Below, piece after piece: positions 58,721 through 58,923 of a DNA stretch of 64,000 nt. A program made the position numbers and the translations under genes. Position 1 is the stretch's first letter; the number at the start of each line of letters is the position of its first letter. The stretch covers positions 10,540,001-10,604,000 of the forward strand of contig OZ024750.1 in the NCBI GenBank assembly GCA_964016885.1, given 5' to 3'. The notes beneath the pieces were generated by a model that worked only from the letters and a program-made list of their open reading frames with translations, had not been told where the DNA came from and did not search any database. Origin of the DNA: Eledone cirrhosa. Lineage: Eukaryota.

Positions 58721-58923
58721 GGAACGAGTAGGACCCCTATGGCTGAGCTCAAGCCGTTTCGACGGCTAATTCTGGACTAAATTTAGTCCAGAATTAGCCG
58801 TAGAAACGGCTTGAGCTCAGCCGTCGGGGTCCTACTCGTTCCTATTACCCACTCTACTATCCTAAGTATTGAGTACTTTGGTGCGTTATGGTCTATCTGG
58901 TTCCTTACCACATTTCCTTCGTT
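58721..58923 (+). mobile_element. Family B insert with a loop-less 122-bp palindrome
   Basis: Centre CTGGACTAAA|TTTAGTCCAG at 58781/58782. Arms span 58721-58842 and the tail runs to 58923. Confidence 0.92.

What the first reader, a model, noticed from the sequence alone, without database searches (positions are those of the whole stretch)
58721..58923. Family B palindromes pivot at the helix II hairpin and end at a TA microhomology: a readable integration mechanism
Seen: about 12 copies keep GAAA-CGGC-(loop with GAGCUC)-GCCG-UC-GGGGUC, but none retains CUGANGA. The inversion centre varies by copy (31333-31341, about 43445, about 56406, 58781/2, 60597-60600), always just 5' of GAAA. The short arm typically stops at ...TTCC|TATA, while the long arm continues about 80 nt. 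Inference: reverse transcription primed in (TA)n crosses the uncleaved GUC site and stalls in helix II. The cDNA then snaps back, copies itself and rejoins the target at TA microhomology. Variable centres and asymmetric arms argue against a MITE.
Basis: partly seen in the sequence, partly recalled or inferred. Interest (0 to 1): 0.75.

Follow-up and report, generated by a model that had tools for sequence, protein, structure and literature searches.

The report
Double-primed Penelope stubs record RNA ends
These mirror-image inserts are stubs of a very abundant Penelope-like jumping gene; each likely forms when one RNA is copied twice from two fixed start points, and the spot where the halves meet likely marks either the start of that RNA or the cut made by its built-in RNA scissors.

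Summary
The palindromes are real: 12 loci in the window, 11,745 exact tight joins in the genome. They are the 3' end of a 3,542-bp Penelope-like element (PLE) with a Hydra-type RT + GIY-YIG protein. The shape (inverted truncated copy, tail on one end) is published. Long copies carry a full type I hammerhead whose core is mostly U3-A8, not CUGANGA. Snap-back is not supported: the tail-less arm often holds sequence its partner lacks. Each insert pairs one end A with one end B, 79 nt apart (51 of 51 classifiable pairs in unselected DNA). Inner ends cluster at an initiator-like TTAGTC, with an extra G (91 of 100 vs 20 of 31 one base on), read as a copied cap. In 56 inserts both arms stop exactly at the predicted ribozyme cut (0 at three control positions). 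Best reading: both target strands prime on one sense RNA, both cDNAs run off its 5' end and are joined. Against: arms longer than one unit rarely stop at that start. No RNA data. This scan reached similar readings in other genomes.

The parts
58718..58781 (-). Arm A: tail-less copy of the PLE 3' end (unit positions 3463 back to about 3400), outer end TTCCTA|(TA)n
58782..58924 (+). Arm B: tailed copy (unit positions 3400-3542), outer end TTCGTTA|(TA)n
58783..58788 (+). Initiator-like TTAGTC; A at 58785 (u3403) is the inferred capped RNA start
   Evidence: conserved across subfamilies; extra G before it (vs 64); initiator consensus recalled
58795..58800 (+). 3' strand of true hammerhead helix II (partner strand lies upstream, only in long copies)
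   Evidence: fold; G-C to A-U change in 10 of 31 rows
58803..58830 (+).
   Evidence: layout as in Hydra HHR table; cut-ended inserts
58846..58924 (+). 79-nt 'tail' between inferred RT start site A (58845) and site B (58924)
   Evidence: tail concept PMC8557442, PMC11167929
2487..2540 (+). Lone A arm, older subfamily
7238..7330 (.). A+B pair; B arm only about 30 nt, A arm to u3405
11407..11513 (+). B arm from u3447 with a very short inverted A stub
20951..21126 (.). A+B pair, older subfamily (B from u3430, A from u3408)
31203..31395 (.). A+B pair, older subfamily
38152..38267 (-). B arm with internal jump, joined to an unrelated short sequence
43391..43588 (.). A+B pair with 14-nt duplicated piece at the join
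50355..50517 (.). A+B pair; A arm ends at u3403 followed by C (extra G on the RNA strand), B from u3447
56350..56507 (.). A+B pair; B arm short or internally deleted
57868..57924 (+). Lone A arm, older subfamily
60461..60657 (.). A+B pair (A from u3403, B from u3407)

Best explanation
The palindromes are head-to-head pairs of 5'-truncated copies of the 3' end of a Penelope-like retroelement, one arm ending at fixed site A and the other at fixed site B 79 nt further on, and they likely form when the element's protein cuts both strands of a (TA)n target and uses each cut end to copy the same sense RNA, one from A and one from B. Shown: element identity, A+B pairing, positions of inner ends, extra bases at the joins. 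Inferred: each 3'-OH pairs with a UAU at A or B; both cDNAs run to the RNA's 5' end (mostly a capped start at the initiator-like A, u3403; in a few percent the hammerhead cut, G3444); the trailing cDNA displaces the leading one; the two free 3' ends, often with an added A or the cap-derived C and some trimming, are joined by microhomology or end-joining. Long arms arise when priming is at a downstream copy of the A/B sites on longer RNA.
For: Arms run seamlessly into a tandem 3,542-bp unit with a 786-codon RT-EN frame. A+B in 51 of 51 classifiable pairs of 57 in 1.064 Mb chosen by position, P about 1e-15 against independent choice; 80 of 82 classifiable of 93 in search loci (2 B+B, 0 A+A); 15 of 15 long inserts with both outer ends resolved. 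80 of 102 paired arms and 94 of 140 classifiable arms end at u3399-3416. Next to a TA flank the base before A3403 is G in 91 of the first 100 listed of 160, against 20 of 31 before G3404; Fisher P=0.001 (hand counts). Both arms at the predicted cut with one A/T between: 56 inserts; same pattern at 3442, 3445, 3446: 0, 0, 0; 45 of 100 listed arms near there end exactly at G3444, 14 more ambiguous (hand count). 20 of these 56 fetched: all A+B (one called by eye), extra A on cDNA-A in 10, on cDNA-B in 10. The subfamily with a mostly mismatched C3-A8 core (30 of 36 long copies) gives 7 of 49 cut-ended inserts vs 44 of 100 A ends, P=0.0004. Partners of long arms do not stop at the start site: 0 of 30 after removing 4 artefacts, so the two arms are coupled. 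In vitro, a PLE protein cut and extended both strands and started at two internal sites that bound the tail (PMC11167929).
Against: Arms longer than one unit should stop at u3403 of the upstream copy; only L031 (u3416) does, while L057, L059, L060, L061, L064 run past it. Many arms read TTT-AGTCC, up to 3 nt upstream of the inferred start; these may be added As or other starts, not separable. The control also has a G excess (20 of 31). In the old subfamily the G excess is weak and the commonest join has both arms at G3404 plus one A (by eye). A script test gave only 15 of 17 vs 6 of 14, P=0.018, with one subfamily missing from its template set. The subfamily baseline pattern left out one U3-A8 subfamily, which inflates that contrast. 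Deletion after insertion could make some asymmetric joins. Coupling could come from two like RNAs rather than one. No RNA data. PMC11167929 found no reads ending at the anole hammerhead cut and no homology at RT start sites.
Confidence: 0.7

Rival explanations
1. One reading: one cDNA primed at B stalls in helix II, folds back, copies itself and rejoins the target at a TA microhomology.
For: Many joins are near-symmetric (27 of 51 within 7 nt) and have short overlaps; site A has TAT matching the target; inner ends lie next to helix II.
Against: A arm holds 22-103 nt absent from the B arm in 9 of 51 pairs; long inserts have inner ends kilobases apart and A can be the multi-kb arm; CCCC-A-GGGG joins leave no loop to fold on and the extra A is on either cDNA, 10 and 10; other TAT sites in the tail (u3485, u3505) are hardly used (2 of 151 arms end elsewhere).
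Confidence: 0.05
2. Same double priming, but on two separate RNA molecules held by a protein dimer, one committed to A and one to B.
For: Avoids copying one stretch twice; the anole protein is predicted to be a dimer (PMC11167929); 2 B+B pairs exist.
Against: Inner ends are coupled: both at the rare cut site in 56 inserts, and long arms have no start-site partner in 30 cases; independent RNAs would mostly pair a rare end with the common one.
Confidence: 0.17
3. Self-priming on an antisense transcript makes the head-to-head palindrome (proposal in PMC3846280).
For: Explains head-to-head geometry and palindromic joins; palindromic inserts would yield antisense RNA.
Against: Inner ends fall on two sense-strand landmarks (initiator-like A with extra G; hammerhead cut); does not explain strict A+B outer ends.
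Confidence: 0.05
4. A MITE or a few fixed palindromic master copies amplified as units.
For: Some joins recur (5, 4 and 3 of 89); fixed outer ends.
Against: 76 distinct joins in 89, 32 in 34 unselected; recurrent joins occur with A and B swapped and in different subfamilies; arms are the end of an RT-coding unit.
Confidence: 0.03

Closest known systems
Hydra clade of C-terminal EN+ PLEs, incl. Hydra-1_Obim (Craig et al. 2021, PMC8557442)
   Same: RW(K/R), DKT, CxCX5C linker, GIY-YIG without CCHH, CxxC and CxH near the end, (TA)n targets, type I hammerhead near the 3' end; N-terminal half resembles Hydra-1_Obim by eye.
   Different: Unit 3,542 bp vs generally under 3 kb; hammerhead core U3-A8 with a long loop II and helix III vs canonical cores listed; very high copy number; clear tandem pLTRs.
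PLE insertion architecture: inverted 5'-truncated copy plus tail (D. virilis Penelope PMC2377424; A. vaga Pen2a PMC3846280; overview PMC8557442)
   Same: Head-to-head inverted copy, partial tandems, tail on one end, promoter-like motifs in the pLTR.
   Different: Tail 79 nt vs 30-40; here thousands of miniature inserts allow the A+B rule and inner ends to be counted; PMC3846280 favoured antisense self-priming.
PAc (Poseidon of Anolis carolinensis) in vitro, PMC11167929
   Same: Two internal RT start sites that bound the tail; both strands cut and extended; AT-rich targets; uncleaved RNA the main template.
   Different: PAc sites lie in the ORF with no homology to the target and no reads ended at the hammerhead cut; here the sites lie upstream of the first ATG, both have TAT, and some inserts end at the cut.
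U3-A8 hammerhead variant of Schistosoma Cercyon PLEs (PMC4209133)
   Same: Same core covariation in a PLE pLTR.
   Different: That motif is minimal; this one has full helices II and III.
L1 twin priming (recalled, no call)
   Same: Second target strand primes on the same RNA and gives a 5' inversion.
   Different: L1's second priming site is variable and arms do not overlap; here it is fixed and both arms copy the same stretch.

Membership tests
EN+ Penelope-like element | Single ORF with RT and GIY-YIG endonuclease | tested here: met
   P0001: YRDD RT core and NVIY...AYIG endonuclease read by eye against the alignments in PMC8557442; Pfam and PDB sequence searches gave no hit at E<=1.
EN+ Penelope-like element | Tandem or partial-tandem units forming pLTRs | tested here: met
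   Array of 3,542-bp units in L054-L055; partial tandems in L057-L061 and others.
EN+ Penelope-like element | Inverted 5'-truncated copy at the 5' end | tested here: met
EN+ Penelope-like element | Tail extension on one end | tested here: met
   79 nt rather than 30-40; on exactly one end in 131 of 133 classifiable pairs.
EN+ Penelope-like element | Target-site duplication | tested here: inconclusive
   Flanks are almost all (TA)n, so none can be read.
Hydra clade | RWK motif, DKT for DKG, C-terminal EN without CCHH, CxCX5C linker, CxxC and CxH around E and N | tested here: met
   RWR, DKT, CNCPDRSIC, one Cys between GIY and YIG, CNLC and CKH in P0001.
Hydra clade | (TA)n insertion preference | tested here: met
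   134 of 151 arms meet a microsatellite at end A or B.
Hydra clade | Hammerhead in the pLTR (canonical in described members) | tested here: inconclusive
   Type I fold present but position 8 is A in 72 of 73 distinct long copies: U3-A8 39, C3-A8 33, U3-G8 1.
Hydra clade | Placement in the clade on an RT tree | not tested
   Reference proteins were seen only in a paper supplement; filed as likely Hydra on motifs.
Type I hammerhead ribozyme | Three helices around a core, GAAA, NUH triplet | tested here: met
   MFE three-way junction for the youngest and the old subfamily, not for L007 or L250; 93.9% of cells paired, one pair changed on both sides in 10 rows (one event between subfamilies).
Type I hammerhead ribozyme | Core CUGANGA or a compensated 3-8 pair | tested here: met
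   UUGANAA with N7 variable (G 44, T 26, C 3); U3-A8 variant described in PMC4209133; not met in the C3-A8 subfamily.
Type I hammerhead ribozyme | Self-cleavage | not testable with these tools
   Indirect only: 56 inserts end at the predicted cut vs 0, 0, 0.
MITE | Fixed symmetric terminal inverted repeats, fixed interior | tested here: not met
   Ends differ by 79 nt; 76 distinct joins in 89.
Non-LTR retrozyme | Short non-coding tandem units each with a whole hammerhead | tested here: not met
   Short inserts lack the 5' half of the ribozyme and are inverted pairs; the tandem unit codes for RT.

The most novel reading that the evidence does not exclude
The short arms are 'strong-stop' DNAs: the PLE primes twice near the capped 5' end of one RNA, and a displaced cDNA normally jumps to the repeat at the RNA's 3' end, which would rebuild the pLTR and partial tandems; the palindromes are failed jumps, and the cut-ended class shows that a U3-A8 hammerhead cleaves the element's RNA in the germ line and that cut RNA is still copied. 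Leads: arms longer than a unit run past the start site and are mostly A arms (9 of 11 by eye); L076 jumps at u3403; L359 repeats a unit that begins at the cut. Against: no G at u3402 in 62 long copies; long arms lack start-site partners.
Probability: 0.25. Interest if true: 0.8.

Novelty: new member of a known kind. Interest (0 to 1): 0.55.

Why it matters
How PLEs make head-to-head inverted ends, and whether their hammerheads cut in vivo, are stated as open in PMC3846280, PMC8557442 and PMC11167929. This family has over 20,000 copies whose ends can be read to the base. They favour double priming on sense RNA over antisense self-priming or snap-back, predict a start site and a cut site to the nucleotide, and give a subfamily with a mismatched core as an internal control. 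Intact-looking young copies make an in vitro test feasible. The architecture itself is known.

Tried and rejected
Rfam scan of the window listed only microsatellite-driven miRNA matches among the 150 best of 498, no hammerhead shown. Inverted-repeat listing was swamped by (TA)n. Pfam and PDB sequences gave nothing for the ORF. Naiad clade considered and rejected: the endonuclease is C-terminal. The apparent endonuclease loss in L005 is a deletion in that copy only. First arm parser had an off-by-one anchor and the second had TA-contaminated templates; both were discarded. One search used pooled templates and overstates overlaps, so overlap sizes are not used as counts. In one search four rows flagged 'TSS' were dropped as artefacts (L005 is the edge-cut view of L031; L253, L262, L302 are merged neighbouring short inserts). 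The 200 kb from C14 held no copies but stays in the 1.064 Mb. TSD search uninformative. Old subfamily: 5 inserts with both arms within a few bases of the cut, 1 of them with the one-A join, too few to test. No held paper was found for cap copying; that step is recalled. One search fetched an unrelated paper. Look-ups of earlier findings by place and by sequence were empty.

Full report
Observation. At 58718-58924 two copies of one sequence lie head to head in (TA)n: a short arm ending TTCCTA|TA and a long arm running 79 nt further. Twelve loci of the family are in the window, 8 as clear pairs. The window is C10:10540001-10604000 of G000, a 3.0-Gb genome. Exact patterns count 22,032 long-arm ends, 15,199 short-arm ends and 11,745 tight joins, with 0 for the reversed controls.

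What it is. 7 of the 30 best genomic matches continue upstream as one shared sequence (L005-L007, L021-L024). This leads to an ORF with 46,998 first-look candidates, 150 scored. L054-L055 hold a tandem array of a 3,542-bp unit; I number positions on it (u). [quoted passage not shown] It carries RWR, DKT, CxCX5C, no CCHH, and CxxC/CxH, the marks given for the Hydra clade (PMC8557442 section 11), and resembles Hydra-1_Obim by eye. No tree was built. The window's arms are u3400-3463 (end A) and u3400-3542 (end B).

The ribozyme. Long copies read ACCCC, YUGANAA, helix II, GAAA, helix III, GUC, GGGGU. The youngest subfamily folds as a three-way junction; two of four test sequences do not. On 31 aligned rows 93.9% of cells pair and one helix II pair changes on both sides between subfamilies. 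Position 8 is A in 72 of 73 distinct long copies; position 3 is U in the oldest and youngest subfamilies and C in 30 of 36 of another. U3-A8 is a described PLE variant (PMC4209133).

Outer ends. In 1.064 Mb taken by position (window included), 57 head-to-head pairs were found: 51 A+B, 0 A+A, 0 B+B, 6 unclassified. Search loci gave 80 A+B, 2 B+B, 11 unclassified; some were selected on one end. All 15 long inserts with both ends resolved are A+B, and either arm can be the long one. Both sites carry TAT; two other TAT sites in the tail are hardly used. In vitro, the anole PLE cut and extended both strands and started at two internal sites bounding the tail (PMC11167929).

Inner ends. 94 of 140 classifiable arms end at u3399-3416, 33 downstream, 13 upstream. 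This is the 3' part of loop II and the helix II 3' strand. TTAGTY at u3401-3406 is kept across subfamilies while the loop upstream varies; it fits the initiator consensus (recalled), and D. virilis Penelope has an internal initiator promoter in its pLTR (PMC2377424). Where an arm meets a TA flank through one G or C, it is G in 91 of 100 listed (160 in all) before A3403 and 20 of 31 before G3404 (hand counts; P=0.001). Copying of the cap as an extra G is recalled knowledge. A second, minor peak lies exactly at G3444, just after the predicted cut: 56 inserts have both arms there with one A/T between, against 0 at 3442, 3445 and 3446; 459 inserts have both arms within that neighbourhood. The 20 fetched are all A+B, with the extra A on either cDNA equally. 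The subfamily with the mismatched core is under-represented, 7 of 49 (one mixed insert dropped) vs 44 of 100, on an imperfect baseline.

Mechanism. Snap-back needs the tail-less arm to be a copy of the tailed arm. It is not in 9 of 51 short pairs (a tenth, at 56.4 kb, is ambiguous) or in the long inserts. The two arms share their fate: both at the rare cut site, and never at the start site when the partner is long (0 of 30 after dropping 4 artefacts). I therefore read both arms as first-strand cDNAs from one sense RNA, primed at A and B by the two target strands, run off the 5' end and joined. Strand displacement and the joining step are inferred. Confidence 0.7 for this mechanism, about 0.97 for PLE identity.

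Against. Arms longer than one unit mostly run past the inferred start, so longer RNAs or template jumps are needed. Many arms include up to three T before A3403. The old subfamily shows a weaker G excess and a common join at G3404. No RNA run was listed. Later deletions can mimic asymmetry.

Relation to print. The architecture is described (PMC8557442, PMC2377424, PMC3846280). PMC3846280 read the joins as self-priming on antisense RNA and left the question open. Searches listed no paper that I could see proposing a strict A+B rule or cDNA ends at a PLE hammerhead cut; most hits were seen as listings only, and Arkhipova 2006 and Evgen'ev and Arkhipova 2005 were not seen and may bear on this. 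Seen: PMC8557442 abstract, passages, section 11, supplement part 2 of 59 and search hits; PMC11167929 parts 1-2 of 4, supplements not opened; PMC2377424 part 1 of 4 and passages; PMC4209133 passages; PMC3846280 passages and Discussion; bioRxiv 10.64898/2026.07.22.740005 part 1 of 5 (retrozyme definition; its supplements are closed). Earlier notes of this scan report like readings in other genomes; I read them, and they are not independent support.

Verdict. A real feature: a new, very abundant member of a known kind, with ends that test an open mechanistic question. Interest 0.55.

Noticed in passing
window 58311-58680: A different dispersed palindrome with near-symmetric arms of about 170 nt directly upstream of the finding; 31 BLAST pieces in 1.064 Mb. 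Family not identified.
   Followed up: partly
window 11316-11365 and 38267-38312: A short unrelated sequence ending at (TA)n; at 38.27 kb it is joined head to head to a family-B tailed arm, perhaps the end of another element used as the partner arm.
   Followed up: partly
L055:9171-10000 and L056:1-2742: A 55-bp piece of the ORF (u1615-1672) is tandemly expanded over about 3.5 kb inside a tandem array.
   Followed up: no
L359:168-512: A 246-nt unit starting exactly at the predicted cut (u3444-3542 plus u1-147) followed by u3444-3542 again: a jump or small circle at the cut site.
   Followed up: partly
L027:1290-1345: An unrelated flank with a canonical CUGAUGA...GAAAC hammerhead-like motif.
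   Followed up: no
C1 sample (L124-L143) vs C10 and C19 samples: Short palindromes are far denser on C10 and C19 than on C1 and absent from the C14 sample; C1 holds several diverged ORF relatives at 32-54% identity.
   Followed up: no
window 58846-58924: The tail's GTATTGAG(T/C)ACT hairpin motif also appears near the 3' end of Hydra-2_Amil in the PMC8557442 supplement (seen by eye), a possible conserved protein-binding signal.
   Followed up: no
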